Positions 4,273 to 58,170 of a stretch of 64,000 nt of DNA are shown piece by piece. The notes beneath the pieces were generated by a model, which was given only the letters and a program-made list of their open reading frames with translations, ran no database searches and was not told the DNA's origin. The stretch is taken from NCBI GenBank assembly GCA_021107855.1, contig JAIORZ010000011.1:199686-263685 (forward strand), written 5' to 3'. The stretch comes from an archaeon (lineage in GTDB: Archaea > Nanobdellota > Nanobdellia > Pacearchaeales > GW2011-AR1). The translations under genes were made by a program, and so were the position numbers. The first letter of the stretch is position 1. Each line of letters begins with the position of its first letter.

Positions 4273-4324
4273 AGGATTATAATATTAGTTAGATTTAAAA
4301 GTCTTGAGTTTAGTTTATTTATAT

Positions 4325-5383: not shown

Positions 5384-5538
5384 GCCTTCGTAGCTCAGGT
5401 GATAGAGCGCTTCACTCGTAATAGGCTCCCTCTTTTAGAAAAAGAGGTTCCCTGGAATCAGAAAACTTAGTTTCCAAAACTACGTTTTGATTTTAACGAG
5501 ACATGAAGAGGTCGCGGGTTTGACTCCCGTCGGAGGCT
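5384..5538 (+). tRNA. tRNA-Thr (CGU) with 82-nt intron at 37/38 (intron 5421..5502)
   Basis: Exons fold into a cloverleaf: acceptor GCCTTCG/CGGAGGC, anticodon stem CTTCA/TGAAG, loop CTCGTA|A, T arm GCGGG-TTTGACT-CCCGT. Intron 3' end ACGAG pairs with anticodon-loop CTCGT, giving a BHB-like helix. Confidence 0.85.
5422..5493 (+). repeat. 72-nt repeat element, copy 1 (inside the tRNA-Thr intron)
   Basis: TAGGCTCCCTCTTTTAGAAAAAGAGGTTCCCTGGAATCAGAAAACTTAGTTTCCAAAACTACGTTTTGATTT differs at one position from 21071..21142. Contains hairpins CTCTTTT-AGA-AAAAGAG and AAAAC-TAC-GTTTT. Confidence 0.85.
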
Positions 5539-5724: not shown

Positions 5725-5985
5725 ATGGAATTTAGTAAGATTTATAAGATATGTGGTTGTCTTATTAATATGAAGAAGGGATATGGGAGTTTTGTTTTGG
5801 TCGTTCTGGTTGGGTTAATTATGGCGTTGATTGTTTTGATGAAGCTTTTTTTCAAGCTTGATATTGATAGTGATTGGTTTTGGTTTTTGGCTGGGGTTGG
5901 GCTGATGTTTGAGGGTGTGATTTCCTATAGGCGTCAAAAAAGGATTAATAATAAGTATAAGGTTGTGGAGAGAGGAGCCAGGTGA
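5725..5985 (+). CDS. small membrane protein
   Basis: 86 aa with two hydrophobic helices. The start could also be the internal ATG (MKKGYGSF...). Confidence 0.5.
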   Translation: MEFSKIYKICGCLINMKKGYGSFVLVVLVGLIMALIVLMKLFFKLDIDSDWFWFLAGVGLMFEGVISYRRQKRINNKYKVVERGAR

Positions 5986-6275: not shown

Positions 6276-6317
6276 TTTTTAAGTTAGATTTAAAACTTGA
6301 GATTTGTTTTGATTTTT

Positions 6318-8039
6318 ATGAAGTTAGCGATTATTGATAGGGAAAAGTGTAAGCCGTCCGTTTGTGGTCGGGAGTGTAAGAAATATTGTCCGGTTGAGAA
6401 GCAGGAGGTGGATAGTTGTGTTATGATTGGGGAGAAATGTTTGATTGATGAGCATGCTTGTGTAGGGTGTAGTATTTGTGTGAAGCGGTGTCCGTTTGGG
6501 GCGATTAATGTTGTGAATTTGCCGTCGGTGTCGGAGAAAGATATTGTGCATCGGTATGGTGAGAATGGGTTTGCGCTTTATGGGTTACCGATTCCGAAAG
6601 AGGGGAGCGTTCTTGGTTTGCTTGGGAGAAATGGGATTGGGAAGAGCACGGCGGTTAGTATTTTAGCTGGGAATGAGAAAATGAATTTGGGGCGGAATGT
6701 GGCGAGTGAAGAAGATGTTAAGGAATTTTTTAAGGGGAATGAAATTTTGAGATATTTTGAGGGGCTTGGGGGCAAAAAGGTTTCTTATAAACCGCAGAAT
6801 TTGTCTAGTCTGGCGATTGATGTTGGAGTGATGGAGTTGTTGTTGAAGCGAGGTTCGGAAGATAAGATTAAAGAGTTGGCTGAAGTTTTGGGGGTTGGTC
6901 AGGTTTTGGGGAATAAGATGGATAAGTTGAGTGGCGGTGAGTTACAGAGGATTGCGATTTTGGCGGCTAGTTTGGGTGAGAGTGATATCTATTTTTTTGA
7001 TGAGCCTTTGGCGTTTTTGGATATTGGGGAGAGGTTGAGGGTTTCGGATTTTTTAAGGGAGTTGTCTAAGAACAAGACGTTGATTGTTGTTGAGCATGAT
7101 TTGTTGATTTTGGATTATTTGACTGATTATGTGAATGTGTTTTTTGGTGGGCAGGGGGCGTTTGGTTTGGTGAGTGGGGTTAAGAGTTCGAAGGTCGGGG
7201 TTAATGCTTATTTGGATGGGTTTTTGAAAGAGGAGAATATGAGGATTCGGGATAAAGCGTTGCGGTTTGATTTTACGCGGAATGCTTTGATGAGTGGTTT
7301 GAAAATTGCGGAGTGGCCGAATTTTAGTTTGGAGTTTGACAGTGGGTTTAAATTAGATGTTAAAGGTGGAAAAATTCATGAGAATCATGTTATTGGGGTT
7401 TTGGGGAAGAATGGGACGGGGAAGACGAGTTTTGTTAAAGCTTTGGCGGGGGAGTTGGAGACGGATAAGGGTAAGTTAGATTTGAAACTAGACATTTCGT
7501 ATAAGGAGCAGTATTTGTTTTCGGAGAGCGAAGGGTTGGTTAGGGATGTTTGTTTTAAGGAGAAGATTAGTAAGAGGTTGAAGAGTACTTTTAATTTGGG
7601 AGTTTTGGAAGGGAAGCAGATTAAGAATTTGTCTGGTGGGGAGTTGCAGAGGTTTTCGGTTGCTCGGTGTTTGGCGAAGGATGCGGATGTTTATTTGATT
7701 GATGAGCCTAGTGCTTATTTGGATGTTGAGGAGAGGATTTCGGTCGCGAAGGCGATTAAGGATATCATGGTTGAGAGGGGGAAGACGGCGTTTGTTGTTG
7801 ACCATGATTTGTTGGTTGTTTCGTATTTGGCGGATTCGATTATTAATTTTGATGGCGAGGGTGGGGTTAAGGGAGAGGCTGGTGAGGTTGTGGAGTTTGA
7901 GGAGGGCGTTTCTAATCTTTTGAAGAGTTTGGATGTTACGTTGAGGAAGGATAAGGAGAGTGGGAGGCCGAGGATTAATAAGAGAGGGAGCGTTTTAGAT
8001 AGGGAGCAGAAGGCGAAAGGGAAGTGGGCTGTTTTTTAG
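6318..8039 (+). CDS. abce1: ABCE1 / RNase L inhibitor-type ribosome recycling ATPase
   Basis: N-terminal 2x[4Fe-4S] ferredoxin Cys clusters (CKKYCP, CVGCSICVKRCP) and two ABC cassettes (GRNGIGKST, GKNGTGKTS; two LSGGELQR). The ORF track starts at a TTG; the ATG at 6318 (MKLAIIDREKC) is the likely start. Confidence 0.92.
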   Translation: MKLAIIDREKCKPSVCGRECKKYCPVEKQEVDSCVMIGEKCLIDEHACVGCSICVKRCPFGAINVVNLPSVSEKDIVHRYGENGFALYGLPIPKEGSVLGLLGRNGIGKSTAVSILAGNEKMNLGRNVASEEDVKEFFKGNEILRYFEGLGGKKVSYKPQNLSSLAIDVGVMELLLKRGSEDKIKELAEVLGVGQVLGNKMDKLSGGELQRIAILAASLGESDIYFFDEPLAFLDIGERLRVSDFLRELSKNKTLIVVEHDLLILDYLTDYVNVFFGGQGAFGLVSGVKSSKVGVNAYLDGFLKEENMRIRDKALRFDFTRNALMSGLKIAEWPNFSLEFDSGFKLDVKGGKIHENHVIGVLGKNGTGKTSFVKALAGELETDKGKLDLKLDISYKEQYLFSESEGLVRDVCFKEKISKRLKSTFNLGVLEGKQIKNLSGGELQRFSVARCLAKDADVYLIDEPSAYLDVEERISVAKAIKDIMVERGKTAFVVDHDLLVVSYLADSIINFDGEGGVKGEAGEVVEFEEGVSNLLKSLDVTLRKDKESGRPRINKRGSVLDREQKAKGKWAVF

Positions 8040-8710: not shown

Positions 8711-10438
8711 ATGAAAGAAGTTGTTGTTAAGTTGATTGCAAAGGAAGTTAGTCTGGATGTTTCTGAGGTTGAAAATTCGATTGAGGTTCCGCCTAAGTCG
8801 GAGATGGGGGATTTTGCGTTCCCTTGTTTTGGGTTGGCTAAGTCAGAGAAGAAACCTCCGGTTATGATTGCTCGGGATTTGGTTGGGAAGTTTATGGTAA
8901 ATTTGCCGAAAGAAATTGAGAGGGTTGATGTTGATGGGGCTTATGTGAATTTTTTTGTTGATAAAAAGATTCTGGCTGGTGAGGTTTTGAAAAAGGTTGA
9001 GGAGAAGGGTTTTGGGAAGTTGGATTTGGGGAAGGGGAAGAAAAGACTTGTTGAGTATTCGCAGCCGAACACGCATAAGGCGTTTCATGTTGGTCATATA
9101 AGGGGGACTTCTTTGGGCGAGAGTTTGGCTCGGATTTTTAGAGCTTGTGGGGAGAAAGTCGTTCAGATGAATTATAGTGGGGATAGTGGGATGCATATTG
9201 CGAAGTGGATTTGGTGTTATCGGAAATATCATAAGAAGGAAAAATTGAGCGATGATGAATCTTGGATTGCCGGAATTTATGTTGATGCGGTTAAGGGGAT
9301 TAGTGAAAATGAAGAGTTTCAAGAGGAGGTTGATAAGATTAATAGGAAGATAGAGAGTGGAGGAGATAAGGCGATTAATGCTTTGTGGAAGAAGACTCGG
9401 GCGATGTCGATTAAGTCTTGGAAGAGAATTTATGATGAGTTGGGTGCGCATTTTGATGTTAGTTTTTTTGAGAGTGAGTTTGAGGAGGCTGGGAAAGATG
9501 AGTCGCTTAAGTTGTTAGAAAAGGGAATTGCGAAGAAGGATGATGCGATTTTTATGGATTTGAAGGATTTTGGACTTGGGGCTTGGGTTTTGTTGAGGAA
9601 GGACGGGACGGTTTTGTATTCAGCGAAGGATATTGCTTTGGCTTTGAGGAAGTTTAAGGATTATAAGAGTGATAATTATTTGATTTGTATTGGAAATGAG
9701 CAGAAGTTGCATTTTGAGCAGTTGGTTAAGACGTTAGAGTTAATGGGGTTGAAGGACGAGGCTTCGAGGTATGGGGTTTTGCCGTTTGGGATGGTTCGGT
9801 TTCCTGAGGGGAAGATGAGTTCTAGGAGTGGTGCGAATGTTTTGTATTCGGATTTTTTTAAAGAGGTTGTTAAAGTTGCTAAGGATGGGCTTAAGAAGAG
9901 GGGACATGAGGGTAATGATATTGATAAAAGAGCTTTGAAGATTGCGGTTGCTTCGGTTAAGTATTCGATGTTGAAGCAGGGGCCAAAGAAGACGATGATT
10001 TTTGACCCTAGGGCGGATGTTGCGTTTGAAGGGGATACCGGTCCTTATTTGTTGTATTCGTATGCTCGGGCTTCTAGTATTATTAGAAAGGTTAAGAGTG
10101 CACGTAATAGTGTACCCTCTAAGGTGGGCACTGGTGTGCCGTCTTTATCGGGCAAAGCCAAAGTTAAGATTAGTAAGTTGGAGGATTCTGAGGTTAAGTT
10201 GGTTAAGAAAATTGATGGATTTGAGGATGTTGTTGGTCGGGCTTATGAGGGGTTGGCGCCGAATTTGATTGCGAATTATTGTTTCGAACTGGCGAAGGAT
10301 TTTAATGAGTTTTATCATGCGTGTCCGGTTTTGGGGAGTGAGAGTGAGGGATTTCGATTGGCGCTTGTTGGGGCGTTTCGGTTAACATTAGGAAAAGGAT
10401 TGGAATTATTAGGAATAGAGAAATTAGAAAAAATGTAA
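8711..10438 (+). CDS. argS: arginyl-tRNA synthetase
   Basis: 575 aa with class I HIGH-like motif HVGHIRG, KMSKS-like MSSRSG, and a C-terminal DALR-type anticodon-binding region. Confidence 0.9.
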   Translation: MKEVVVKLIAKEVSLDVSEVENSIEVPPKSEMGDFAFPCFGLAKSEKKPPVMIARDLVGKFMVNLPKEIERVDVDGAYVNFFVDKKILAGEVLKKVEEKGFGKLDLGKGKKRLVEYSQPNTHKAFHVGHIRGTSLGESLARIFRACGEKVVQMNYSGDSGMHIAKWIWCYRKYHKKEKLSDDESWIAGIYVDAVKGISENEEFQEEVDKINRKIESGGDKAINALWKKTRAMSIKSWKRIYDELGAHFDVSFFESEFEEAGKDESLKLLEKGIAKKDDAIFMDLKDFGLGAWVLLRKDGTVLYSAKDIALALRKFKDYKSDNYLICIGNEQKLHFEQLVKTLELMGLKDEASRYGVLPFGMVRFPEGKMSSRSGANVLYSDFFKEVVKVAKDGLKKRGHEGNDIDKRALKIAVASVKYSMLKQGPKKTMIFDPRADVAFEGDTGPYLLYSYARASSIIRKVKSARNSVPSKVGTGVPSLSGKAKVKISKLEDSEVKLVKKIDGFEDVVGRAYEGLAPNLIANYCFELAKDFNEFYHACPVLGSESEGFRLALVGAFRLTLGKGLELLGIEKLEKM

Positions 10439-10484
10439 GGCTCCCTTTTAGAAAAAGGTTCCCTGGAATCAAAACTTGGTTAGC
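10438..10484 (+). repeat. repeat element, copy 2 (degenerate/partial), abutting the argS stop codon
   Basis: AGGCTCCCTTTTAGAAAAAGGTTCCCTGGAATCAAAACTTGGTTAGC aligns to the 5' two-thirds of the 72-nt element with small deletions. Confidence 0.65.
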
Positions 10485-10531
10485 TATAATTAAAAATCAA
10501 TTTTTTATGAAAAATCAATTTTTAATTATAG
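10484..10531. terminator. long A/T hairpin between convergent argS and trmB-like genes
   Basis: CTATAATTAAAAAT (10484..10497) pairs perfectly with ATTTTTAATTATAG (10518..10531). The loop can extend the pairing. Confidence 0.45.
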
Positions 10532-10539
10532 TATTTAAT

Positions 10540-10601
10540 GCAAATTAAAATTTCTTGACGGTTCCGTCCAAAGGACACCTGAACCTAAAATTTTAATTTG
10601 C
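10540..10601. other. 14-bp perfect stem enclosing a 34-nt structured loop (terminator or small RNA)
   Basis: GCAAATTAAAATTT (10540..10553) pairs with AAATTTTAATTTGC (10588..10601). The loop holds a nested GGTTC..GTCC-AAA-GGAC..GAACC pairing. Confidence 0.45.
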
Positions 10602-10668
10602 GGACTTGTCCAGATAAAGAATTAATATTGTATTGTTGAAATTTATTTACTAGAAGAAGGAAATCGTT

Positions 10669-15703: not shown

Positions 15704-15790
15704 GGATATGGGGGTGAGAAGGGGGTTTTAAGGTTTTTGATGGGAATGCAGAGTATTTATAAGGAATAGTCCATTGATTAGTTTGTTAAG

Positions 15791-16639
15791 ATGGTGAAGG
15801 GAATTAAGATTGGTATGTCGAATAAGTCGTTTTATTCGTTGATTGTGATAGGTGTTTTGATTTTGGTGGGGTCGGTTTATGCTTATGGGACTTCTAGTCC
15901 TTCGGTGATGGGGCATAGTGTTGGTGAGTTGAATATGGGCCCAATTAGGGTTTCTGGAAATAGTGTTGGAATTGGGACGAGTAGTCCGATGCATGATTTG
16001 GATATTGTTAATCCTTCTGGTCCTGCGAATATAAATATTTATGCGAATCCTTCACATTCTAGTAGTGTTACTTTTCTTACAAGTAGGGCTGGTTCGGGTG
16101 TTTTGGGACAGTCAAGTGCTGCGGGGTGGATTATGTATGGAAGGGGGGTTAGTTATGCAGCAGAACCGCATACTTTTGGGATGAATTTTTGGAATGGTGC
16201 TAATTGGCTTCCTCACACACCTCTTAGAATTGATCCGGCTAGTGGATATGTTGGCATAGGCCAACTCCCAAGAATGGGGGTGGGCGCGGGTCCAGTTTAT
16301 TGGGTTGGAGCCCCGGGTTGGCTTACTGCTATAAATCCTTCATCGCGGGAGTATAAGGAGAATATCGAGCCTATGCCGAATTTAAAAGAGGAGAGAATTT
16401 TTGATTTGGAGCTAAAGAGTTTTACTTGGAAAGAGGATCAACAAAATGATTTTGGGTATATAGCTGAGGAAGTTCAAAATGTTTTGCCTGAATTATATGA
16501 AGAGGACGAACATGTCACAGGCTACCAAAAGGATAAACTTATTTTTTATGTTATTGAATTAGTTAAATCTCAACAAGAACAGATTGATAAACTTGAAAAA
16601 GATAATGAAGAGTTGAGAGATTTTTTGTATAGGGAGTAG
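15791..16639 (+). CDS. secreted tail-fibre-like protein with C-terminal peptidase S74 intramolecular chaperone domain; leader family member B
   Basis: Leader MSNKSFYSLIVIGVLILVGSVYAYGTSSPSVMGHSVGEL. It has an NSVGIGTSSP..LD repeat typical of fibre proteins. The C-terminus SSREYKENIEPM..FTWKED..GYIAEEVQNVLPELY plus coiled coil matches the endosialidase-chaperone pattern. Confidence 0.7.
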   Translation: MVKGIKIGMSNKSFYSLIVIGVLILVGSVYAYGTSSPSVMGHSVGELNMGPIRVSGNSVGIGTSSPMHDLDIVNPSGPANINIYANPSHSSSVTFLTSRAGSGVLGQSSAAGWIMYGRGVSYAAEPHTFGMNFWNGANWLPHTPLRIDPASGYVGIGQLPRMGVGAGPVYWVGAPGWLTAINPSSREYKENIEPMPNLKEERIFDLELKSFTWKEDQQNDFGYIAEEVQNVLPELYEEDEHVTGYQKDKLIFYVIELVKSQQEQIDKLEKDNEELRDFLYRE

Positions 16640-19550: not shown

Positions 19551-21070
19551 ATTAAACTTTTGATTAGTCTGTTTAGTTCGTCGGTGTGGAATGGTCGTCC
19601 GTTGTATTTTAGGAGTCGGTTTCGGATTTCGATTCCGGTTTGCTCTCTGATTAATCTTCCAAGTTGCCCGGTGACGTTGCATTCTACTAGGATTACGTTA
19701 TCGGCGTTTTGTATTTCTTTTTTGATTTGTTGTGAAAGTGGTTTGCAGTATATAACTTGGAGGAATTTTGCGTCAAGGTTGTGAATCGCGTCTTTGATTG
19801 CTCCTGAGGTTGAACCCCAGCCGACAATTAGGTTTCTTGATTTTTTCTTTCCGTGGATTTTTATCATCTCGAAATTTTCTCTCACGTATTTTTGTATGTC
19901 ATTATATTTTTTTAGTCGATTGTCTGTATTTCGTTCTGTTAGTGTGTATGATTCTGTCGAGTTGCCGAATTTATCGGTTTCGTAGGAGGATTTTTTTACT
20001 ATGTTTTTTCCTGGGATTAGTCTTTTTATTTTGAAGTCTGGTGTTTTGTTGGGTTTGTTTATCGAGGAGAATTCCGATTCTGCTAAGTGTTTGTCGGAGA
20101 GGATTATTGAAAGTGTTTTGAATTTTTCTGCTAGGAATAATGCTTCGGAGGTTTTTTCGATTGCTTCTGTTGGGTTTCCTGGCGCTATTACTACTCTAGG
20201 TGCTTCTCCGTGGCCGGCTCTTAATGCTATGTCTAAATCTGATTGTGCGGTGTAAGTTGGGACGCCTGTCCCTGGTCCGGGACGTGAAGCTAGATATACC
20301 GTTAAGGGAATTTCGGATATTCCTTGGAGAGATAGAGTTTCTCCCATCAGGTCAAAGCCGCCACCGGAAGTTCCTGTCATTACTTTGGTTCCTGCGAATG
20401 AAGCTCCGAGCGCCATCGACGCTGCCGAGATTTCGTTTTCGGCTTGGAATACCATGAGGTTATTTTTGAGTTGGTCTTTCGCTAGTTCGTGCATTGCGTT
20501 TGTCGCTGGGGTCATTGGGTATGCGATGTAGAGTTGAAGTCTGGAGTTTATTGCGCCGATTGCGATTGCTTGGGAGCCTGCGAGTATCGTTGGGTGATTT
20601 TTTAGTTTTGGTAGCTCGTGAGATGTTCTGTAAGTTTTATATCCTTTTTCCGCTGCCTCTAATGCTTCGGTGGGTTTTTTGAATTGGGATTTGATTTCGC
20701 TTTCTAATGCTGAAAGTGGTATACCTAATATTTTTGTTAGTGCTCCTGCGAGTGCTACATTTATGTTTCGTCCTAGGTCTTTGAATTGGTCTCCAGTGAT
20801 TAGTATACCGTTTTTCTTTAGTGCTTGTTTGTGGGTTTTTATGCTTCGTTTATCCATAGCTACGAGAATGTCTGCGTGTGCGTCGTGTGATTCTATTAGT
20901 ATGTTGGAAACTGCTAGTGTGTTGAAATTGTGGCCACCTCGGATTAGGGACGCGTAGTCTCGGTAGTTGAATGTAAAGTATCCATGTTCACTTAGGACGT
21001 TTGAGAAAATTTGGGAGACCTTGTTTATTCCTTGTCCCGCCGCTCCGCCTATAATTATATTCAATTTCAT
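19547..21070 (-). CDS. korA: 2-oxoacid:ferredoxin oxidoreductase, alpha subunit (gamma-alpha fusion)
   Basis: 507 aa with an N-terminal gamma-like IIIGGAAGQG domain followed by an alpha domain (AYPMTPAT, GTSGGGF). Confidence 0.82.
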   Translation of the reverse strand: MKLNIIIGGAAGQGINKVSQIFSNVLSEHGYFTFNYRDYASLIRGGHNFNTLAVSNILIESHDAHADILVAMDKRSIKTHKQALKKNGILITGDQFKDLGRNINVALAGALTKILGIPLSALESEIKSQFKKPTEALEAAEKGYKTYRTSHELPKLKNHPTILAGSQAIAIGAINSRLQLYIAYPMTPATNAMHELAKDQLKNNLMVFQAENEISAASMALGASFAGTKVMTGTSGGGFDLMGETLSLQGISEIPLTVYLASRPGPGTGVPTYTAQSDLDIALRAGHGEAPRVVIAPGNPTEAIEKTSEALFLAEKFKTLSIILSDKHLAESEFSSINKPNKTPDFKIKRLIPGKNIVKKSSYETDKFGNSTESYTLTERNTDNRLKKYNDIQKYVRENFEMIKIHGKKKSRNLIVGWGSTSGAIKDAIHNLDAKFLQVIYCKPLSQQIKKEIQNADNVILVECNVTGQLGRLIREQTGIEIRNRLLKYNGRPFHTDELNRLIKSLI

Positions 21071-21142
21071 TAGGCTCCCTCTTTTAGAAAAAGAGGTTCC
21101 CTGGAATCAGAAAACTTATTTTCCAAAACTACGTTTTGATTT
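21071..21142 (+). repeat. 72-nt repeat element, copy 3 (between acs stop and korA start)
   Basis: Identical to 5422..5493 except one position (CTTATTTTCC vs CTTAGTTTCC). Confidence 0.85.
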
Positions 21143-21151
21143 GTCGCCATA

Positions 21152-23086
21152 TTAAGAATTTTCGTTGATTATTGTTTTTATTTTGTCGACGGATGTTGGG
21201 TTTACAAGGGTCATCAATCCTTCTGGTTTTTCTTTAATTAAGAGAGCTTTTAGGATTCGTCGCATGATTTTTCCGGATCTTGTTTTTGGTAGGTCTGGTA
21301 CGAAGAAGATTCTTGCAGGTCTTGCTGTTGGTCCAATTTTTATGTCTACATGTTTTCTTAGTTTTTGTTCTAGTTTTTTGGATGGCTCCCCTCTTTTTAA
21401 TACGACGAATGCGATTGGGACTTGTCCTCTTATTTTATCTGGCATTGGTACGACTGCCACGTCGCTGACCTTTCTATTGTCGTGGATTGCGTTTTCTACT
21501 TCTGCTGTTGCAAGTCTGTGTCCTGCTACTTTCATTACATCGTCGGTTCTTCCCGTGATTCGTACTAGTCCGTCTTGAAGGTAGGCTCCGTCGGATGTGT
21601 CGTACATGGTTTTAAATTTTTTCCAATATGTATCTACATATTTTTTGTGATTATTGAATACGCCGTGAAGCATTCCTGGCGCGAATGGACTTTTTTGTGC
21701 GAGGAATCCCTGTCTTCCTTTCGGCATCGGCTTTCCTTTGTTGTCGACTATTACGTGCTTGATTCCTGGGAAACTTTTTCCTGATACTGTTGGAACGAAT
21801 GGTCCGATTCCTGGGATTGTATTAATGAGAGTTCCGCCTGTTTCGGTTTGCCACCATGTGTCGATTATTGGGCAACGTGAGCCTCCGATGGTTTTGAAAT
21901 ACCACATCCATGTTTCTTTATCTATCGGTTCGCCCACGGTTCCTAGGATTTTTAGTGAGGAGAGGTCGTGTTTTGTAATCCATTTTTGTTGGATTTTCAT
22001 GAACATTCTGATGGCTGTCGGTGCGGTGTAGAAGACGTTTACTTTGTGGTCTTGGATTATTTTCCACCATCGTCCTGGATTTGGGAAATCCGGTCCGCCT
22101 TCGTAGATTAGTGTCGTTGCGCCTGTTAGTAGCGGTCCGTACATTGCGTAGGTGTGTCCTGTTATCCAGCCTATGTCTGCTGTGCACCACATTACGTCTT
22201 CGGGGTGTAGGTCGAAATTCCATTTGCATGTCCAGTAGGCTTGTGTCGCGTATCCTCCAGTGTCGTGGATTACGCCTTTTGGTTTTCCTGTTGTTCCGGA
22301 TGTGTAGAGCAGAAACATTGTGTCTTCGGAGTTCATCATTTCGGGTTCGCAATGAGATGGCGCTTTTTCTAATTCCTCGTCGAAGTTTAGGAACTTTCCT
22401 CCTTTGACTTTTTTACCAATTCTATTTACCACAATTATTTTTTTTATGGTTGTTCTCCTGGTTGCTTTTTTTGCTTTTTTCAAGAGGTCTTCTGGTTTTC
22501 CTCTTCGATAATATCCATCGGATGTGATTAGGATTTTCGCTTTACCGTCTTGGATTCTTGCTTTTAATGCATCTGCGGAGAATGCGGAGAATACGACGGA
22601 ATGGATTGCGCCTATCCTTGTGCATGCTAGCATTGCGATTAGGGCTTGCGGTATCATTGGTAGGTAGATTGAGACTACGTCGCCTTTTTTTACTCCGTTT
22701 GCTTTTAGGACGTTGGCGAATTTGTTGATTTTGTCGTAGAGTTCCGCGTATGAGAATTTGATTGGTTTTTCGTTGTTTGGTTCGGGCACCCAGATTAGTG
22801 CGGTTTTGTTTGGGTCGTGTAAATGTCTATCGACGCAGTTTACGGAAAAGTTTAGCTTGCCGCCTTTGAACCATTGGAAGTATGGAAGTTTTTCGGTATA
22901 AGGCTTGTCCCATTCTTTGTCCCATGTTAGACCTTCCCTCGCGAGATTCTCCCAGAATTTGATTGGGTCTTTCGCGGCTTTGTCATAGATTTTTGTATCG
23001 GTTATGTTGGCGATTTTTTTTAGTTCTTCACTAGGGTAGAATTTGTTGTTTTTTCTGACTACGTATTTTATGCCTCTTTTTTTCAT
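21152..23086 (-). CDS. acs: acetyl-CoA synthetase (AMP-forming)
   Basis: 644 aa with AMP-binding motif YTSGTTGKPKG, WWQTETGG, and C-terminal PKTRSGKIMRR. Confidence 0.92.
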   Translation of the reverse strand: MKKRGIKYVVRKNNKFYPSEELKKIANITDTKIYDKAAKDPIKFWENLAREGLTWDKEWDKPYTEKLPYFQWFKGGKLNFSVNCVDRHLHDPNKTALIWVPEPNNEKPIKFSYAELYDKINKFANVLKANGVKKGDVVSIYLPMIPQALIAMLACTRIGAIHSVVFSAFSADALKARIQDGKAKILITSDGYYRRGKPEDLLKKAKKATRRTTIKKIIVVNRIGKKVKGGKFLNFDEELEKAPSHCEPEMMNSEDTMFLLYTSGTTGKPKGVIHDTGGYATQAYWTCKWNFDLHPEDVMWCTADIGWITGHTYAMYGPLLTGATTLIYEGGPDFPNPGRWWKIIQDHKVNVFYTAPTAIRMFMKIQQKWITKHDLSSLKILGTVGEPIDKETWMWYFKTIGGSRCPIIDTWWQTETGGTLINTIPGIGPFVPTVSGKSFPGIKHVIVDNKGKPMPKGRQGFLAQKSPFAPGMLHGVFNNHKKYVDTYWKKFKTMYDTSDGAYLQDGLVRITGRTDDVMKVAGHRLATAEVENAIHDNRKVSDVAVVPMPDKIRGQVPIAFVVLKRGEPSKKLEQKLRKHVDIKIGPTARPARIFFVPDLPKTRSGKIMRRILKALLIKEKPEGLMTLVNPTSVDKIKTIINENS

Positions 23087-23624: not shown

Positions 23625-23782
23625 AATTTGACCGAAGCCAAATATTCAATTTAAATAAAATCAACCGAAGTTGACAGGATGTAAATTGAACAAATATGGA
23701 TGGTTATCGAGGGTTATAAAGTTTTCTTACTATTGTTTAGGTGTTGCAAAGGGTCCCATATTTTTTATTGTTAGATAGAGTT

Positions 23783-24040
23783 GTAGGCCGGCAAGAGCTC
23801 AAATTCATAACAACAGAGGTCATCAATTTTTCTCAGTTTCGCAACCCTCTAAGCACCTAAACCTTAACTTAGGGCTGCTTCATTCCTGACCTGACCCAAT
23901 TCATCAAGGCAAGATCAAAAAGGACGAAACCTCAACGTCAAACCGATAACGTGTGAAACTTCATATCACTTGCTTGCCTTGCAGTTCGCCATAAAGCCCA
24001 TTTGCGTTACAGCGTGGGGCTAGCACGCCAACCTGCCTAC
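23783..24040 (-). ncRNA. SRP (7S) RNA
   Basis: The minus strand reads GGGTCAGGTCAGGAATGAAGCAGCCC, the universally conserved helix-8 (domain IV) motif. 5' GTAGGC pairs with 3' GCCTAC. Alu-domain-like GCGTGCTAGCCCCACGC/GTAAC hairpins are present. Base composition is balanced, unlike the coding DNA. TATA-like CTTTTAAAG lies about 25 nt upstream. Confidence 0.8.
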
Positions 24041-24146
24041 AGAGAAAAACAGAGAAAAACCTTTAAAAGAGTTGGCATTCTCCAAATTACATGCTCACAT
24101 CGCATAAAGTAACATTCAAAATGTTTCATGAATGCAGTGTTCAGAA

Positions 24147-24235: not shown

Positions 24236-24262
24236 TTTCGCTAGTTTTATAAAGTTGTTGGG
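24236..24262 (+). promoter_or_regulatory. pilin promoter/5' region, copy 1 (TATA TTTTATAAA)
   Basis: The 27 nt TTTCGCTAGTTTTATAAAGTTGTTGGG are identical to 24918..24944. The ATG follows about 29 nt after the TATA. Confidence 0.6.
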
Positions 24263-24274
24263 TTTTTGTTTGGA

Positions 24275-24916
24275 ATGAGAAAGAGTGATATCGTAGATGT
24301 TTCATTTGTCAATCCTAATAATAGAATTAACAAGAGGGCGCAGTTTTTTTTGTTGGCGGCTGTGATAATTTCGTCGGTTGTGATTAGTTTGGGGATGACT
24401 GGGAATCGGGCGATTGTGAATGAGGAACCGGAGGATATTTACAGTTTTGGTTATGAGGTGAAGAAGGAGGCGGGGGCGATTTTGAATTATGGGGTCTATA
24501 CGAATTTTAGCGAGGGTGTGAATTTGTCGGAGTTCGTGGATTCGTTGGCTGAGGAGATTGAGGAGAGGAGTCCGGGGTCGGATTTTATTTTTATTTATGG
24601 GACTCGTGGGAATATGACATTGAAGAATTATGGGTCGGAGAGTATCTATATGGATAGGATAGAGATTAAGGGAAGAAAGGGTGTTACTAGTAGGATTTGT
24701 CTTAATCATTTGTGTCAGTATGTCGACGAGAATATTACGAATTTTGCGGATATAAACACGACTACTGCTCCTATAGATCCTACTAGGACCACAAGTGATG
24801 ATGTTTTAGTTGAGATTGAGGGGAATGAGTATACGTTTCCTTTGACGGATTATAGGCAGGTGATTTTTGTGTTGCAGAAAGAGGTCGGGGGAGATAGATA
24901 TATTATAGTTGAGTAG
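24275..24916 (+). CDS. pilin-like protein with class III-type signal
   Basis: N-terminal ..NKRAQFFLLAAVIISSVVISLG (basic residues, then a hydrophobic helix). First ATG at 24275. Confidence 0.6.
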   Translation: MRKSDIVDVSFVNPNNRINKRAQFFLLAAVIISSVVISLGMTGNRAIVNEEPEDIYSFGYEVKKEAGAILNYGVYTNFSEGVNLSEFVDSLAEEIEERSPGSDFIFIYGTRGNMTLKNYGSESIYMDRIEIKGRKGVTSRICLNHLCQYVDENITNFADINTTTAPIDPTRTTSDDVLVEIEGNEYTFPLTDYRQVIFVLQKEVGGDRYIIVE

Positions 24917-24917
24917 G

Positions 24918-24944
24918 TTTCGCTAGTTTTATAAAGTTGTTGGG
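24918..24944 (+). promoter_or_regulatory. pilin promoter/5' region, copy 2
   Basis: Identical 27-mer to 24236..24262. Similarity continues to the ATG at 24957. Confidence 0.6.
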
Positions 24945-24956
24945 GTTTTGTTGGGG

Positions 24957-25427
24957 ATGAGTGGGATTAAGAAGAGGGGGCTTAGTAATTTGGTCGCGTA
25001 TGTTTTGTTGATTACGATTACGATTTCTCTTTCAGTGTTTGTTTATGGATGGTTGAAAACTTATGTCAGTGGAGAGGAGGTTGAGACGTGTCCCAGTAAT
25101 GTGAATATAATTATTAGTGGTTATGAGTGTGTTTCGGGTGTTAGTGGGAATTTGAGTGTGAAGTTGAAGAATAAGGGGTTGTTTAATGTGGATGGGTATG
25201 TGCTTCGGGTTCATGACCGTTTGGATGCTGAGTTTGGATTTTTTGTCTTGGATAATACTGGGGCGGCTATTGCGCCGGGGGATGAGATTAATATTACCTA
25301 TAATTTTACGGATTATCCCGGAGAGCCCTTGACTGACGTAACGTTTATTGAGGTTCAGCTGTTTATTTTGGAAGATGGCAGGGTTGCTTGTGAGACTCAT
25401 GCTTCTCAGAAGGCTGTTTGTAGTTGA
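24957..25427 (+). CDS. archaeal type IV pilin (class III signal peptide)
   Basis: MSGIKKRG|LSNLVAYVLLITITISLSVFVY matches the archaeal Pilin_N pattern. Confidence 0.7.
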   Translation: MSGIKKRGLSNLVAYVLLITITISLSVFVYGWLKTYVSGEEVETCPSNVNIIISGYECVSGVSGNLSVKLKNKGLFNVDGYVLRVHDRLDAEFGFFVLDNTGAAIAPGDEINITYNFTDYPGEPLTDVTFIEVQLFILEDGRVACETHASQKAVCS

Positions 25428-44844: not shown

Positions 44845-44931
44845 CTAAGATATAAGATTAGGAGGTTTATAAAATTGTGGAAATTTGAGAATAAGACAAA
44901 CAATTATAAAGATTGGTTTGTTTAATAAAAA

Positions 44932-45561
44932 ATGGTGAAGAGGATTCGGGTTGATATGTCTGATAGGTTATTTTATACGCTTGTCGTGGTTGGGTTGACG
45001 ATTTTGTCGGTGGCTGTGGTTTATGGTTATGGGACCTTTGAGCCTGCTGTATTTGGACATAGTTTAGGGGAACTGAATCTTGGTGTTTATGATTGTAATG
45101 GGAATGCTATTACAAAGATTAATTTTAGTGATGGGAGTGTTACTTGCGTGGGAGCTGGGGCTGGATTTGATTTGCTTTATGGGGCACATAGCAGTGAGCA
45201 GTGTACTAATTTAGCTGGAACGGTGGTTGATGCTGGAGCGGGAGATATTTGTAAGTTCCCGAGTAGTTCTTGTCCTGCAGGCTGGGCACAATATGGGAGT
45301 TGGAGCACGACCACTAGTAATTCAGCTGATTGTGATGCTCATCGTCTTTATGTTGGTGATGATACGACTTGCTCAAGGCGTCCTTATGAAGGACCAATCT
45401 GTTATACTGGTGGGCACGCATTTAGTGATACGGCAAGGGAATCATGTACATCTACTTATAATTTAGTAGGATGGGATGTTAGTGCTCATTGTGCTCCAGG
45501 ATGTACAGGTCCTAATTTTGTTACAGCTTATGCCCACATAACTGAGATGGGTTGTTATTGA
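44932..45561 (+). CDS. secreted Cys-rich protein, conserved-leader family member C
   Basis: MVKRIRVDMSDRLFYTLVVVGLTILSVAVVYGYGTFEPAVFGHSLGEL, followed by a 150-aa domain with many Cys. Confidence 0.7.
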   Translation: MVKRIRVDMSDRLFYTLVVVGLTILSVAVVYGYGTFEPAVFGHSLGELNLGVYDCNGNAITKINFSDGSVTCVGAGAGFDLLYGAHSSEQCTNLAGTVVDAGAGDICKFPSSSCPAGWAQYGSWSTTTSNSADCDAHRLYVGDDTTCSRRPYEGPICYTGGHAFSDTARESCTSTYNLVGWDVSAHCAPGCTGPNFVTAYAHITEMGCY

Positions 45562-54452: not shown

Positions 54453-55889
54453 ATGATGGGGAAGCGTAAAAACATGTCTTTTAAAAAGGAAGTTGGGGAT
54501 TCATCCTCGTCGGATAAAGCGTTTCCGGTCAAGATTGGGTTGGAGGTTCATGGGTATTTGGATAGTCGGGAGAAGTTGTTTTGTATGTGTCGGACGGATT
54601 TTTTGGAGTCGGAGGCGAATAGCAGGATTTGTCCGATTTGTACGGGGACGCCGGGGTCGAAGCCGATGGCTGTGAATTTGGAGGCGGTGCGGAAGATGGT
54701 GCAGATTGCGATTGTTTTTGGGTCGAAGATTAATCTTGAGACGACTTGGCAGAGGAAGCATTATGATTGGGCGGATTTGCCGAAGGGGTATCAGACGACG
54801 ATGTCGGGGGCGCACGCGAAGGTGAACGCGGTTGGGGGGAAGTTTCGGGGGATTAATATTACGGAGTTGCATTTGGAGGAGGACCCGGCGCAATGGAATC
54901 CGGATTCGGGGAGGATTAATTATAATCGGAGCGGGTTGCCGTTGATTGAGATTGTGACGGAGCCGGAGTTTAGTGATAGTGAGCAGGTTGTTGAGTGGTT
55001 GAAGGGTTTGCTTTTGTCTCTTAGTTATATTAAGGCGGTGCGGAAGAATGCGGGGATTAAGGTTGATGTGAATGTTTCGACTTATGGGGAGCGGGTTGAG
55101 ATGAAGAATTTGAATTCGTTGGAGAAGATTAGGAAGGCGATTGATTATGAGGTTGTTCGGCAGGTTGAGGCTTACGATGCTGGTAAAACCCAGCCCAGAG
55201 AGACGATGGCTTATGATGAGTCGAAGGGGATTACGGTTAAGATGAGGTCGAAAGAGGGGGCTGCTGATTATAGGTTTGTTCCTGACCCGGATTTGCCAGT
55301 GATGAAGATAGATGAGAAGATGGTGAAGGAGATAAGGGCTGGGATGCCGGAGATGCCGGAGGTTAAGCTGGAGAGGTTGTTGAAAAAGTATGAGGTTGGG
55401 GAGAAAGATGCGAAGATTTTGACGAGGAATTTGGAGCTTGTTGATTTTTTTGAGAGGTTGGCTGGGAATGGGATTAACGCTAAGAAAAATATAAGTTGGA
55501 TTACAATTGAGTTGATTAGGGTTTTGAATTATAATAAGAAGAGTTTGGAGGATGCGGATGTTGAGATTTTGCCGGAGCATTTGGCGGAGTTGATTGAGGC
55601 GGTTGAGGCTGGGGATATTACGGTTTTGAAGGGGAAGCAGATTATGAATGATTTTGTGCCGAGGAGTTTTTCGTTGAGGGAGCATAAGGGGGAGATTGGG
55701 AATATTGATGAGGCGGCGGTTGAGAATTTGTGTAGGCAGGTGATTAGTGAGAATGCGCATGTTGTTGAGGAGTATAGGGCGGGGAAGGTGGCTTCTCTTA
55801 ATTTTTTGATTGGGGGAGTTATGCGGTTGAGTGAGAGAAGGGCGGATTTTAAGGTGGCGGGGGATTGTTTGAAGAGGTTGATTGGATGA
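54453..55889 (+). CDS. gatB: Asp/Glu-tRNA amidotransferase subunit B
   Basis: KIGLEVHGYL..KLFCMC, LHLEEDPAQ, GIKVDVNVS, and a C-terminal YqeY-like LIGGVMRLSERRADFK. Confidence 0.88.
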   Translation: MMGKRKNMSFKKEVGDSSSSDKAFPVKIGLEVHGYLDSREKLFCMCRTDFLESEANSRICPICTGTPGSKPMAVNLEAVRKMVQIAIVFGSKINLETTWQRKHYDWADLPKGYQTTMSGAHAKVNAVGGKFRGINITELHLEEDPAQWNPDSGRINYNRSGLPLIEIVTEPEFSDSEQVVEWLKGLLLSLSYIKAVRKNAGIKVDVNVSTYGERVEMKNLNSLEKIRKAIDYEVVRQVEAYDAGKTQPRETMAYDESKGITVKMRSKEGAADYRFVPDPDLPVMKIDEKMVKEIRAGMPEMPEVKLERLLKKYEVGEKDAKILTRNLELVDFFERLAGNGINAKKNISWITIELIRVLNYNKKSLEDADVEILPEHLAELIEAVEAGDITVLKGKQIMNDFVPRSFSLREHKGEIGNIDEAAVENLCRQVISENAHVVEEYRAGKVASLNFLIGGVMRLSERRADFKVAGDCLKRLIG

Positions 55890-57382: not shown

Positions 57383-57700
57383 TTAAACTTCTTTTGAAAT
57401 TCTTTTGATTAAATCTTCTTTGTGTTCGGGCTTACAATATAAAACGATGCCTTCTTTGTATCTTGCTAGTTTTTCTTTAGTGTGACAGTGGGCGTCTCCG
57501 CCGATTACCCAGATTCTTGAATTTGTTTTTGGGTCGGAATAGATGTCGTAGGGGTGGGTGTAGAGACCATTCTTTTCTACGAGGTTGAAAGGGAAGCCAA
57601 TAGTGGCTTGTGCCTTTAACATATTTCTGAGATGGTTTCTTGGGAACATTAGTCCTGTTCCGCCTTCGGTTTCGTAGTCGAAAAATTGTTTTTCTGTCAT
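57383..57700 (-). CDS. hypothetical protein, tandem paralog 2
   Basis: Shares FDYET..GTGLMF.RN...FPF.L.EKN.L..HPYDIY.DPKTNS.IWV.G.DAHCH..EK...YKEGI..YC.P.HK.DLIK with 57715..58038. Confidence 0.65.
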   Translation of the reverse strand: MTEKQFFDYETEGGTGLMFPRNHLRNMLKAQATIGFPFNLVEKNGLYTHPYDIYSDPKTNSRIWVIGGDAHCHTKEKLARYKEGIVLYCKPEHKEDLIKRISKEV

Positions 57701-57714
57701 GGCTTTTGGTTGTT

Positions 57715-58038
57715 TTAAAAACAACTCACCCTCAAAATTTTTTTAATCAAATCTTTTTTATGTTTGGGCTCACAGTAGATGCCGATTCCTTCTTTGTATT
57801 CCCATTGTTTTTCCCCAACATGGCAGTGGGCGTCGTTTCCCATTACCCAGATTTCTGAGTTTGTTTTTGGGTCGGTGTAGATATCATAAGGGTGACTAAG
57901 GAGGTCGTTTTTTTCTGTTAGGTCGAAAGGGAATTTCGTGGCCCATTTTAGATTCGACTTGTTCCTGAACTGGTTTCTTATGAACATTAGTCCGGTTTTG
58001 CATTTGGTTTCGTAGTCAAAGGAGATTTTGTCTGTCAT
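57715..58038 (-). CDS. hypothetical protein, tandem paralog 1
   Basis: See 57383..57700. The paralogy supports both as real genes. Confidence 0.65.
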   Translation of the reverse strand: MTDKISFDYETKCKTGLMFIRNQFRNKSNLKWATKFPFDLTEKNDLLSHPYDIYTDPKTNSEIWVMGNDAHCHVGEKQWEYKEGIGIYCEPKHKKDLIKKILRVSCF

Positions 58039-58170
58039 GATGTTTGGGGGGCTTTGGGGTTTTTAAAAATTATTGTGGTTTAAAATCAATTCGAGACTCC
58101 GTGTAAAATCGTCCGAGAGATGTTAGCCCAATATAGCAATCCTTAAATTGTCGGAGTTTGTTTATTTTTT

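What the first reader, a model, noticed from the sequence alone, without database searches (positions are those of the whole stretch)
5421..5502. A 72-nt element forms almost the whole tRNA-Thr intron and recurs at two other loci
The 82-nt intron of tRNA-Thr(CGU) consists of a 72-nt sequence (5422..5493) plus only the short anticodon-complementary tail TAACGAGAC needed for the splice helix.
- The same 72 nt occur at 21071..21142, between the acs stop and the korA start, with a single difference.
- A decayed partial copy abuts the argS stop codon (10438..10484).
- All three copies are in the same orientation on the + strand.
- The element contains three short hairpins: CTCTTTT/AAAAGAG, GAAAAC/GTTTCC and AAAAC/GTTTT.
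- It has no ORF, no terminal inverted repeats and no convincing C/D boxes.

Near-identity at dispersed sites implies recent mobility or strong selection. It could be a mobile intron-derived element, an intron created by element insertion, or a small-RNA gene family of which one member is released by tRNA splicing.
Basis: seen in the sequence. Interest (0 to 1): 0.68.

Follow-up and report, generated by a model that had tools for sequence, protein, structure and literature searches.

The report
Strand-locked repeat element filling tRNA intron
The 72-base sequence inside the tRNA-Thr intron is one copy of an apparently undescribed family of small hairpin-forming insertion elements in tiny DPANN archaea, found in tRNA introns, in frame inside genes and between genes, and always on the same DNA strand relative to the genome's base-composition skew.

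Summary
The 72 nt at 5422-5493 recur at 21071-21142 with one mismatch. The tRNA-Thr(CGU) gene (5384-5538) is intact, with an 82-nt intron at position 37/38.

- **Corrections.** The third copy (10438-~10613) is not decayed; it is a full member of a longer subfamily. The acs/kor genes lie on the minus strand, so copy 2 is antisense to them.
- **Family.** The element ("E") starts AGGCTCCC. It has a ~46-nt core with one hairpin and a second, covarying hairpin. It occurs in 13 Pacearchaeota/Woesearchaeota/Nanoarchaeota MAGs and in metagenomes.
- **Contexts.** E lies in introns of tRNA-Thr, Lys, His and Ser, in frame in IscU, and at operon junctions as a start/stop mini-ORF.
- **Polymorphism.** Orthologous sites in relatives are empty, including intron-less tRNA-Thr and tRNA-Lys.
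- **Flanks.** E is often flanked by duplicated host-gene ends that differ mostly synonymously.
- **Strand.** E sits on the G-rich strand at all but two of ~24 sites, whatever the gene direction.

Best reading: a non-autonomous, replication-strand-oriented mobile element, tolerated in tRNA because splicing removes it. The mobilising enzyme is unknown. No Rfam family or paper found matches it.

The parts
5384..5538 (+). tRNA-Thr(CGU) gene. 5' exon 5384-5420, intron 5421-5502, 3' exon 5503-5538.
   Evidence: Rfam tRNA model scores 44.5 bits with an 84-nt insert. The cloverleaf is kept in the minimum-free-energy fold. An intron-less allele in L040 has near-identical exons to the L033 allele.
5421..5502 (+). 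82-nt intron at canonical position 37/38. It consists of A5421, T5422, element E, and the tail TAACGAGAC. The BHB core is helix CUCG 5415-5418 / CGAG 5497-5500, 5' bulge U5419 A5420|A5421 and 3' bulge A5501 C5502|A5503.
   Evidence: perfect 4-bp helix plus 5/5 outer helix. The same geometry is found in L038, L033, L003, L019 and L027.
5423..5494 (+). Element E, short subfamily B, copy 1. Core 5423-5468, hairpin 1 5429-5447, hairpin 2 5475-5489.
21072..21150 (+). Element E, subfamily B, copy 2 (72-nt match at 21071-21142), plus 8 further inserted bases GTCGCCAT. It lies between the acs stop (21152-21154) and the kor start (21068-21070).
   Evidence: The same junction is empty in L041, L042 and L043.
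21070..21150 (-). Mini-ORF read through the antisense of copy 2: MATNQNVVLENKFSDSREPLFLKEGA*. Its ATG lies 1 nt after the acs stop. Its stop TAA overlaps the kor ATG (TAATG).
   Evidence: By hand translation of the sequences printed, the antisense copies in L006, L016, L017 and L024 are open in the same frame, each with an ATG at the start and a stop overlapping the downstream start codon.
10438..10613 (+). Element E, long subfamily A, complete copy. Core 10438-10477, long variable hairpin about 10483-10533, 14-bp helix 10540-10553/10588-10601 enclosing GGUUC/GAACC and a GC hairpin. Its first base is the last base of the argS stop codon TAA.
   Evidence: 16 of 32 predicted pairs show compensatory changes. 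The argS downstream region in L038 lacks it.

Best explanation
The 72-nt sequence is a copy of a non-autonomous, structured insertion element ("E") that spreads within and between Pacearchaeota/Woesearchaeota-like DPANN archaea.

**Anatomy.** E has a sharply defined 5' end (AGGCUCCC). It has a ~46-nt core containing a hairpin whose loop tolerates large insertions. A second hairpin keeps its pairing while its sequence changes. One subfamily adds a ~100-nt 3' domain.

**Orientation.** E's sense strand lies on the G/T-rich strand of the chromosome. I infer this is the leading-strand sequence, that is, the lagging-strand template. That points to a mechanism acting on single-stranded DNA at replication forks, or on the hairpins that strand forms.

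**Survival.** Copies persist only where they do no harm:
- in a tRNA anticodon loop, as part of a canonical bulge-helix-bulge intron removed by the splicing endonuclease (the tRNA-Thr case here);
- in a surface loop of a protein, in an open reading frame (IscU);
- between coupled genes, as an antisense mini-ORF with its own ATG and a stop that overlaps the next start codon (copy 2);
- right at stop codons (copy 3).

**Spread.** Part of the spread is horizontal, together with an adjacent piece of host gene. This leaves a displaced, synonymously diverged copy of the gene end next to E.

**Shown:** the family, its anatomy, its contexts, filled and empty sites, the strand lock and the flank duplications.

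**Inferred:** that E is selfish and mobile, that single-stranded DNA or the replication fork is involved, that the intron is actually spliced, and that the IscU insert is translated.

**Unknown:** the enzyme that moves E.
For: **Distribution.** 18 loci in 13 species-level MAGs and 14 metagenome loci.

**tRNA introns.** E lies at the 5' end of 37/38 introns in tRNA-Thr (window, L038, L033), Lys (L003), His (L019) and Ser (L027). Each has a perfect 4-bp helix and a 5/5 outer helix.

**Filled versus empty sites.**
- tRNA-Thr is intron-less in L040, with exons differing at 1 of 73 positions from L033.
- tRNA-Lys is intron-less in L002, versus an E intron in L003.
- The acs|kor junction is empty in three relatives.
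- Nine IscU protein clusters are 153-165 aa (eight carry the full insert in the alignment); the insert-free forms are about 125 aa.
- The argS downstream region lacks E in L038.

**Recent activity.** Copies 1 and 2 differ at 1 of 72 bases, while the orthologous site of copy 2 is empty in relatives.

**Strand lock.** GC skew in E's orientation is +0.08 to +0.54 at all loci except two near zero. This holds even where flanking genes are on the opposite strand.

**Structure.**
- Hairpin 1 shows a double compensatory change in L040. It is 2 bp shorter in subfamily A through a symmetric deletion. Loop insertions occur in L027, L033 and L038.
- Hairpin 2 occurs as at least 9 differently sequenced paired stems.
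- G·T pairs appear only on the sense strand.
- The 3' domain of subfamily A covaries.

**Flank duplications.** Lengths are 15-144 nt. Across 6 sites, 33 codon differences are synonymous and 17 are not, with no frameshift or internal stop. One pair is 71% identical at nucleotide level but 12 of 13 at amino-acid level.

**No nearby enzyme.** No coding capacity of its own, no recurrent neighbouring gene, and no transposase, reverse transcriptase or integrase domain matched among the ~49 window ORFs I scanned.
Against: - No mobilising enzyme was found.
- E has no terminal inverted repeats. Only a weak bias (T or A) precedes its 5' end.
- The variable flank duplications do not fit any classical transposition mechanism.
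- The core is more conserved than neutral decay of dead copies predicts. In IscU, third-codon positions inside E are almost invariant across 8 species, while the flanking codons vary.
- The tRNA-Thr copy keeps its core in three lineages.
- Such conservation could reflect a host function, a DNA-level role or gene conversion instead of mobility.
- My sampling used exact core patterns, so the apparent invariance is partly ascertainment.
- Splicing, transcription and translation of any copy are untested.
Confidence: 0.55

Rival explanations
1. E is a host-beneficial structured RNA module. It could be a protein-binding or regulatory RNA, or a stable (possibly circular) small RNA. It would be produced from tRNA introns, from the 3' ends of mRNAs, and from its own transcripts. 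The intron would be one of several delivery vehicles.
For: - The core is conserved at nucleotide level inside a coding sequence and across orthologous introns.
- Compensatory changes preserve the hairpins, and G·T pairs occur only on the sense strand.
- Loop expansions are of the kind seen in functional RNAs.
- Subfamily A usually follows a same-strand gene.
Against: - Five independent copies are antisense to the only evident transcripts.
- Orientation follows the DNA strand skew rather than transcription.
- Orthologous sites are often empty.
- Some IscU copies carry uncompensated hairpin-breaking changes.
- There are no C/D or H/ACA boxes and no Rfam match.
Confidence: 0.2
2. E is a chromosomal cis-acting DNA element whose orientation is tied to replication. 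Candidates are a recombination hotspot, or a loading or recognition site for a replication, repair or segregation protein. It would act as a hairpin on the lagging-strand template.
For: - The strand lock is independent of gene direction.
- Nucleotide-level conservation holds in every context, including coding sequence.
- Flanking gene-end duplications and co-converted flanks suggest locally raised recombination.
Against: - Known polar chromosomal motifs (from my own knowledge) are short oligomers, not 70-200-nt structured units.
- Such a role gives no reason for enrichment in tRNA anticodon loops.
- Sites differ between close relatives.
- No binding protein is known.
Confidence: 0.13
3. The mobile unit is the BHB intron itself. 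Excised intron RNA, possibly circular, would be reverse-spliced or reverse-transcribed into new sites, and the non-tRNA copies would be its descendants.
For: - In three tRNAs the 5' end of E coincides with the first intron base.
- tRNA anticodon loops are strongly over-represented among E sites: 4 isoacceptors out of about 24 sites.
- Whole-intron presence or absence occurs between near-identical tRNA alleles.
Against: - Non-tRNA copies never include an anticodon-complementary tail, and their 3' ends differ.
- They have no BHB motif beyond shuffled expectation.
- Each tRNA has its own tail.
- No reverse transcriptase domain matched among the window ORFs I scanned.
Confidence: 0.1

Closest known systems
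Rickettsia palindromic elements (RPE; from my own knowledge, Ogata et al. 2000)
   Same: Both are short hairpin-forming repeats. Both are found in frame inside protein-coding genes, in RNA genes and between genes. Both are tolerated because the reading frame stays open.
   Different: - There is no sequence relationship and the host is archaeal.
- E has a sharp, asymmetric 5' end and is not an overall palindrome.
- E is locked to one DNA strand.
- E sits in spliced tRNA introns.
- E is often flanked by duplicated host-gene ends.
REP/REPIN elements with RAYT, and hairpin-ended derivatives of IS200/IS605 (single-strand DNA transposition; from my own knowledge)
   Same: - No terminal inverted repeats.
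- Subterminal hairpins.
- Non-autonomous.
- Orientation bias relative to replication.
- Long persistence within lineages.
   Different: - No conserved 4-5-nt target or tag precedes E; only T or A is favoured.
- Flank duplications occur, which that mechanism does not make.
- No Y1 transposase domain matched among the window ORFs I scanned.
- E is much longer than a REP.
Similar introns shared by different tRNAs in Thermoproteales ('intron transposition', Fujishima et al. 2010, as summarised in PMC4090602)
   Same: Near-identical intron sequence occurs in tRNAs of different identity, implying intron gain at the DNA level after speciation.
   Different: - There, the shared unit is the intron, often at non-canonical positions, and is not reported outside tRNA genes.
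- Here, the shared unit is only the 5' part of the intron, always at 37/38.
- Most copies of E lie outside tRNA genes.
Integrative elements that restore the target gene end (tRNA- or gene-3'-end-targeting islands and proviruses; from my own knowledge)
   Same: The layout is an intact gene end, then the element, then a displaced and synonymously diverged copy of the same gene end. An exact short repeat sits at the junctions.
   Different: - The 'island' is only 75-230 nt and encodes nothing.
- Targets differ from site to site.
- No integrase was found.
C/D box small RNA in the archaeal tRNA-Trp intron (from my own knowledge)
   Same: A functional-looking, conserved sequence makes up most of a canonical tRNA intron.
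   Different: E has no C or D boxes and no guide complementarity. It is not restricted to one tRNA.

Membership tests
Archaeal BHB tRNA intron | Intron at position 37/38, with a normal cloverleaf after its removal | tested here: met
   The Rfam tRNA model aligns 5384-5538 with an 84-nt insert after the anticodon, at 44.5 bits. The exons match the intron-less L040 allele in form.
Archaeal BHB tRNA intron | Two 3-nt bulges separated by a 4-bp helix, flanked by helices (strict hBHBh') | tested here: inconclusive
   The 4-bp helix CUCG/CGAG, the 3' bulge AC|A and the outer 5-bp helix are present. The inner helix h' is at most 1-2 bp, and the minimum-free-energy fold pairs U36. The motif is therefore a relaxed BHB.
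Archaeal BHB tRNA intron | Splicing endonuclease and ligase present, and splicing observed | not testable with these tools
   No endonuclease or RtcB ligase domain matched among the ~49 window ORFs I scanned. No RNA data are available.
C/D box small RNA | C box RUGAUGA and D box CUGA near the ends | tested here: not met
   Neither motif is in the sense sequence by inspection of 5423-5494. The only snoRNA-family Rfam matches have E-values of 0.9 or worse.
MITE (miniature inverted-repeat transposable element) | Terminal inverted repeats and a fixed-length target-site duplication | tested here: not met
   The ends AGGCTCCC... and ...TTGATTT are unrelated by inspection. Flank duplications range from about 3 to 144 nt.
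IS200/IS605-type or REP/RAYT-type single-strand DNA elements | Orientation bias relative to replication, and subterminal hairpins without inverted repeats | tested here: met
   E lies on the G-rich strand at all loci except two with skew near zero. Hairpin 1 starts 6 nt from the 5' end.
IS200/IS605-type or REP/RAYT-type single-strand DNA elements | A conserved 4-5-nt target or tag next to one end, and no target duplication | tested here: not met
   The bases before AGGC are only T/A-biased. Duplicated flanks occur at 8 or more sites.
IS200/IS605-type or REP/RAYT-type single-strand DNA elements | A cognate Y1 (HUH) transposase in the genome | not testable with these tools
   None matched among the window ORFs I scanned. 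Whole genomes could not be searched.
RPE-like in-frame selfish repeats | Inserted in frame in conserved proteins, with insert-free orthologues | tested here: met
   IscU carries a 34-aa insert with no stop codon in 8 species. Orthologues of about 125 aa lack it. Whether the insert is translated is untested.
Known RNA families (Rfam 15) | A score at or above the gathering threshold | tested here: not met
   No family apart from tRNA matches over any copy.

The most novel reading that the evidence does not exclude
E is a miniature 'flank-guided' integrative element. A unit would begin exactly at E's 5' end and run a variable distance into the neighbouring host gene. It would be copied out from the lagging-strand template or from a transcript, and perhaps circularised. 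It would then integrate by homology into the orthologous gene of another cell. This rebuilds an intact gene and leaves the displaced gene end beside it. When such an element lands at position 37/38 of a tRNA it becomes, or creates, a BHB intron. E would then be a live source of archaeal tRNA introns.
Probability: 0.2. Interest if true: 0.88.

Novelty: new variant of a known kind. Interest (0 to 1): 0.72.

Why it matters
- **Origin of tRNA introns.** Where archaeal tRNA introns come from is an old open question. Here one recognisable element makes up most of the intron in at least four different tRNAs. It also exists outside tRNAs, and intron-less alleles of the same tRNAs are available for comparison. 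That makes intron gain and loss directly testable.
- **A new kind of genome parasite or organiser in DPANN archaea.** These small genomes host a type of element not reported for archaea in the papers I searched. It is hairpin-forming and strand-locked. It can sit in frame in an essential Fe-S scaffold protein and can preserve translational coupling in an operon.
- **Annotation.**
  - Standard tRNA finders miss these genes.
  - Gene callers will read E as protein sequence or as spurious small ORFs.
  - The partial gene duplications can be mistaken for assembly errors.

Tried and rejected
- **Known RNA family.** Rfam at gathering threshold on the window and 18 loci, and at relaxed E-value on all three copies, gave only tRNA. 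The rest were noise-level hits to CRISPR repeats and snoRNAs.
- **C/D or H/ACA guide RNA.** The boxes are absent.
- **BHB introns at non-tRNA copies.** My scan recovers a perfect motif at all six tRNA copies. Elsewhere it finds nothing beyond what shuffled sequence gives. In IscU no motif would restore the reading frame.
- **BHB or K-turn in the 3' domain of subfamily A.** The bulges lie 5' of the helix strands, which is the wrong handedness. There are no tandem G·A pairs (by inspection).
- **Promoter reading of the core.** The large insertions in L027, L033 and L038 fall in the middle of the only TATA-like stretch, which argues against it.
- **HDV-like or hatchet 5'-cleaving ribozyme, and tRNA-derived SINE.** No complementary P1 partner is conserved and Rfam gives no support. 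Both remain untested speculation.
- **Attachment site of a virus or plasmid.** There were no hits in 2.9 million viral contigs, and no exon sequence is repeated.
- **Associated enzyme.** No recurrent neighbouring gene. No transposase, reverse transcriptase, integrase or endonuclease domain matched among the ~49 window ORFs I scanned.
- **Simple target-site duplication with neutral decay.** The duplicated flanks differ mainly at synonymous sites, so this is rejected.
- **Assembly artefact.** Duplications of 71-97% identity recur in MAGs from different studies, so this is rejected.
- **'Bacterial SRP RNA'.** This first suggested a bacterium. It resolves to an archaeal SRP RNA just below threshold.

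Full report
**1. Checking the observation**

The 72-mer occurs at 5422-5493 exactly and at 21071-21142 with one mismatch. None of 100 shuffles gave a match.

The window is archaeal. It encodes ABCE1/RLI, TrmB, GatD/E and an archaeal SRP RNA. Related sequences come from Pacearchaeota, Woesearchaeota and Nanoarchaeota MAGs.

ARAGORN misses the tRNA. The Rfam tRNA model aligns 5384-5538 at 44.5 bits with an 84-nt insert in the anticodon loop. Reading the sequence:
- 5' exon 5384-5420, ending in anticodon CGU and A37;
- intron 5421-5502;
- 3' exon 5503-5538.

The fold keeps the cloverleaf. It extends the anticodon stem CUUCA/UGAAG by CUCG(U)/(A)CGAG, with a 3-nt bulge A-C-A at the 3' splice site. 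My motif scan finds the same perfect helix and outer stem. The inner helix is weak, so this is a relaxed bulge-helix-bulge (BHB) motif.

**2. The third copy is not decayed**

From 10438 the sequence aligns over about 175 nt with 12 copies from other genomes. After the shared core come:
- a hairpin of variable length;
- a 14-bp A/U helix (10540-10553 / 10588-10601);
- inside that helix, GGUUC/GAACC and a GC-rich hairpin.

Sixteen of 32 predicted pairs show compensatory changes. I call this long form subfamily A and the 72-nt form subfamily B. A differs from B in the core by a symmetric 2-bp shortening of hairpin 1 and one missing G.

**3. The family**

An exact-pattern scan of one genome per species gave 18 loci in 13 MAGs. 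A metagenome scan gave 14 further true loci and one chance hit. No viral contig matched.

All copies begin at AGGCTCCC. A profile search finds only the three copies in this window.

Hairpin 1 and hairpin 2 behave as real structures:
- Hairpin 1 is CCUCUUUU-AGA-AAAAGAGG. L040 carries a double compensatory variant, CCUUUCUU/AAGAAAGG.
- Hairpin 1 tolerates loop insertions of 28-44 nt in L033, L027 and L038. The inserts in L027 and L038 are related to each other.
- Hairpin 2 occurs as at least nine differently sequenced but paired stems.
- G·T pairs occur only on the sense strand.

No Rfam family matches. Two further literature searches, after an initial search on tRNA introns in DPANN, found no description of the family.

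One caveat applies. Because I fished with exact core patterns, the apparent invariance of the core is partly ascertainment. IscU copies found through protein similarity do carry 1-6 core substitutions.

**4. Contexts**

(a) tRNA introns. E lies at the 5' end of a 37/38 intron in:
- tRNA-Thr(CGU): window, L038, L033;
- tRNA-Lys(CUU): L003;
- tRNA-His(GUG): L019;
- tRNA-Ser(GGA): L027.

Each intron ends in its own short tail complementary to its own anticodon loop. Each has a perfect 4-bp helix and a 5/5 outer helix. E's first base is intron base 1 in Lys, His and Ser, and base 3 in Thr.

(b) Inside a coding sequence. Nine IscU protein clusters are 153-165 aa, against about 125 aa for ordinary relatives; eight of them show the full in-frame 34-aa insert, in a β-turn. 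No BHB motif there would restore the frame, so the insert is probably translated.

(c) Antisense at gene starts. Copy 2, L006/L024, L016 and L017 are all of this type.
- In relatives, the acs stop abuts or overlaps the kor ATG (L041-L043).
- In the window, 81 nt are inserted at that junction.
- Read on the gene strand, the insert is ATG, then 25 codons through E, then TAA overlapping the kor ATG.
- By hand translation of the sequences, all five antisense copies are open in the same frame (…KFSDSREPLFLKEGA(L)*), with an ATG at the start and a stop overlapping the next start codon. Translational coupling is therefore preserved.

(d) Subfamily A usually begins at, or overlaps, the stop codon of an upstream same-strand gene. 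Copy 3 supplies the last A of the argS TAA.

**5. Filled and empty sites**

- L040 has an intron-less tRNA-Thr(CGU). Its exons differ at 1 of 73 positions from the intron-bearing L033 allele.
- The syntenic relative L038 carries the E intron.
- Judged by exon similarity, the intron is present in both tRNA-Thr clades, so loss in L040 is the more parsimonious reading. This is inference.
- tRNA-Lys(CUU) is intron-less in L002 and E-bearing in L003. Both lie downstream of the same zinc-ribbon gene.
- The argS downstream region in L038 lacks E.
- Copies 1 and 2 differ at one base while the site of copy 2 is empty in relatives with 82-85% identical kor. Copy 2 is therefore recent.

**6. Strand lock**

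The window has an extreme skew. GC skew is +0.12 to +0.52 and AT skew is negative throughout, including under minus-strand genes.

In E's orientation, every locus has positive GC skew (+0.08 to +0.54). The exceptions are L002 and L009, both at -0.04. Flanking genes lie on either strand.

After collapsing duplicate contigs and orthologous sites, about 24 independent sites remain, and none has a clearly negative skew. E orientation therefore follows the DNA strand and not transcription.

That the G-rich strand is the leading strand rests on general knowledge, not on a test here.

**7. Duplicated flanks**

At eight or more sites, the host sequence ending at E's 5' end is repeated just after E. 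These are L004, L008, L009 (two copies), L013, L014, L032, L040 and IscU. Lengths are 15-144 nt and identity is 71-100%.

The copy downstream of E belongs to the intact gene: histone-like, cysS, tRNA-Ser, SMC and others. The upstream copy is an orphan.

- Across six coding cases, 33 differing codons are synonymous and 17 are not. Without L009b the counts are 22 and 3. There are no frameshifts or internal stops.
- The SMC C-terminal pair in L040 is 71% identical in DNA but 12 of 13 in protein. It carries a 15-nt exact repeat at the junctions.

An orphan fragment cannot be under protein-level selection. The two copies must therefore have diverged as working genes in different lineages. I infer that E arrived together with a piece of a relative's gene. 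The layout resembles gene-end-restoring integrative elements.

In IscU, E and the downstream repeat are nearly invariant at synonymous sites across six species, while the upstream host codons vary. This fits recent horizontal spread with co-conversion. It also fits structural constraint. I cannot separate the two.

**8. What moves it**

This is unknown.
- No recurrent neighbouring gene was found.
- No transposase, reverse transcriptase, integrase, splicing endonuclease or RtcB domain matched among the ~49 window ORFs I scanned.
- There are no terminal inverted repeats and no conserved target. Only a T/A bias precedes AGGC.

The strand lock and the hairpins resemble single-strand DNA transposition (IS200/IS605, REP/RAYT). 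The target rule and the absence of duplications that define those families are not met.

**9. Interpretation**

My best reading, at 0.55, is a non-autonomous, replication-strand-oriented mobile element. It is tolerated only in harmless settings. The tRNA-Thr intron is one such setting, and an old one.

The rivals are:
- a host-useful structured RNA (0.20);
- a replication-oriented chromosomal DNA site (0.13);
- the intron itself as the mobile unit (0.10). This is disfavoured because non-tRNA copies carry neither tails nor BHB motifs.

tRNA anticodon loops account for 4 isoacceptors out of about 24 sites. That enrichment, together with the coincidence of E's 5' end with the splice site, is unexplained. 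All ten other tRNA genes in the window and the fetched loci that scored with Rfam's tRNA model at its gathering score lack introns. This hints that E may create these introns rather than land in old ones. The tRNA-specific tails remain unaccounted for.

**10. Comparison with known systems and novelty**

E works most like Rickettsia palindromic elements and REP-type repeats. Its closest tRNA-intron parallel is the 'intron transposition' described in Thermoproteales (PMC4090602). It is not a member of any of these families (see the membership table).

I rate it a new variant of a known kind, namely small non-autonomous repeat elements. Four features are unusual:
- the strand lock;
- residence in spliced tRNA introns;
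- the start/stop mini-ORF design;
- flank duplications derived from another lineage's gene.

Noticed in passing
window 1-64000: The strand asymmetry is extreme. GC skew is +0.12 to +0.52 and AT skew is -0.08 to -0.46 in every 4-kb bin, including under long minus-strand genes. Related loci show the same. This is far stronger than the skews I know from bacteria.
   Followed up: partly
window 23781-24042 (-): The archaeal SRP RNA scores 89.2 bits, just under Rfam's threshold of 96.5. At gathering threshold only the bacterial small-SRP model (23833-23931) is reported, so an automatic annotation would mislabel it.
   Followed up: yes
window 4287-4324, 5734-5771, 6282-6319 (also 7472-7497): A repeated AT-rich motif, AGTTAGATTTAAAA..., lies just upstream of tRNA-Met, of an unannotated stretch after tRNA-Thr, and of the ABCE1/RLI gene. 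It is probably a shared promoter.
   Followed up: no
window 24236-24279 and 24918-24961: A 44-nt repeat (93% identical) precedes two adjacent ORFs with no Pfam match (24266-24916 and 24948-25427).
   Followed up: no
window 57383-58047 (-): A local tandem duplication (57397-57709 versus 57735-58047, about 75% identical) gives two adjacent paralogous small ORFs with no Pfam match.
   Followed up: no
window 15788-15829, 44929-44970, 55317-55358; also 14703, 15874, 45018: Several ORFs share conserved 5' ends (AAGATGGTGAAGGG... and GGTTTATGCTTATGGGAC...). One of them (15791-16639) has a Peptidase_S74 chaperone domain. They may be a paralogous surface-protein family with a common N-terminus.
   Followed up: no
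L002 1346-1455: A duplicated 5' fragment of tRNA-Lys (GGCTTCGTAGCT) is interrupted by a different hairpin-rich insert, just upstream of the intact intron-less tRNA-Lys. These genomes therefore hold other small insert-plus-duplication events.
   Followed up: no
proteins P0310, P0316, P0355, P0265, P0319, P0342, P0277 (kor homologues): Other in-frame inserts of 6-30 aa sit at one loop of the kor protein, with palindrome-like peptide repeats. One homologue has a tandemly duplicated 34-aa N-terminal extension at the same acs|kor junction where copy 2 sits.
   Followed up: no
L027 3112-3155 and L038 11070-11110: The inserts in the hairpin 1 loop of the tRNA-Ser and tRNA-Thr intron copies share a motif, GGCGGATTGRAAATCC. 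This suggests a third, extended subfamily of the element.
   Followed up: partly
L004 5729-6353: The element and its flank appear as a 100% identical tandem (partial element - flank - element - flank) across a run of N. This is either a true tandem array or a scaffolding artefact.
   Followed up: no
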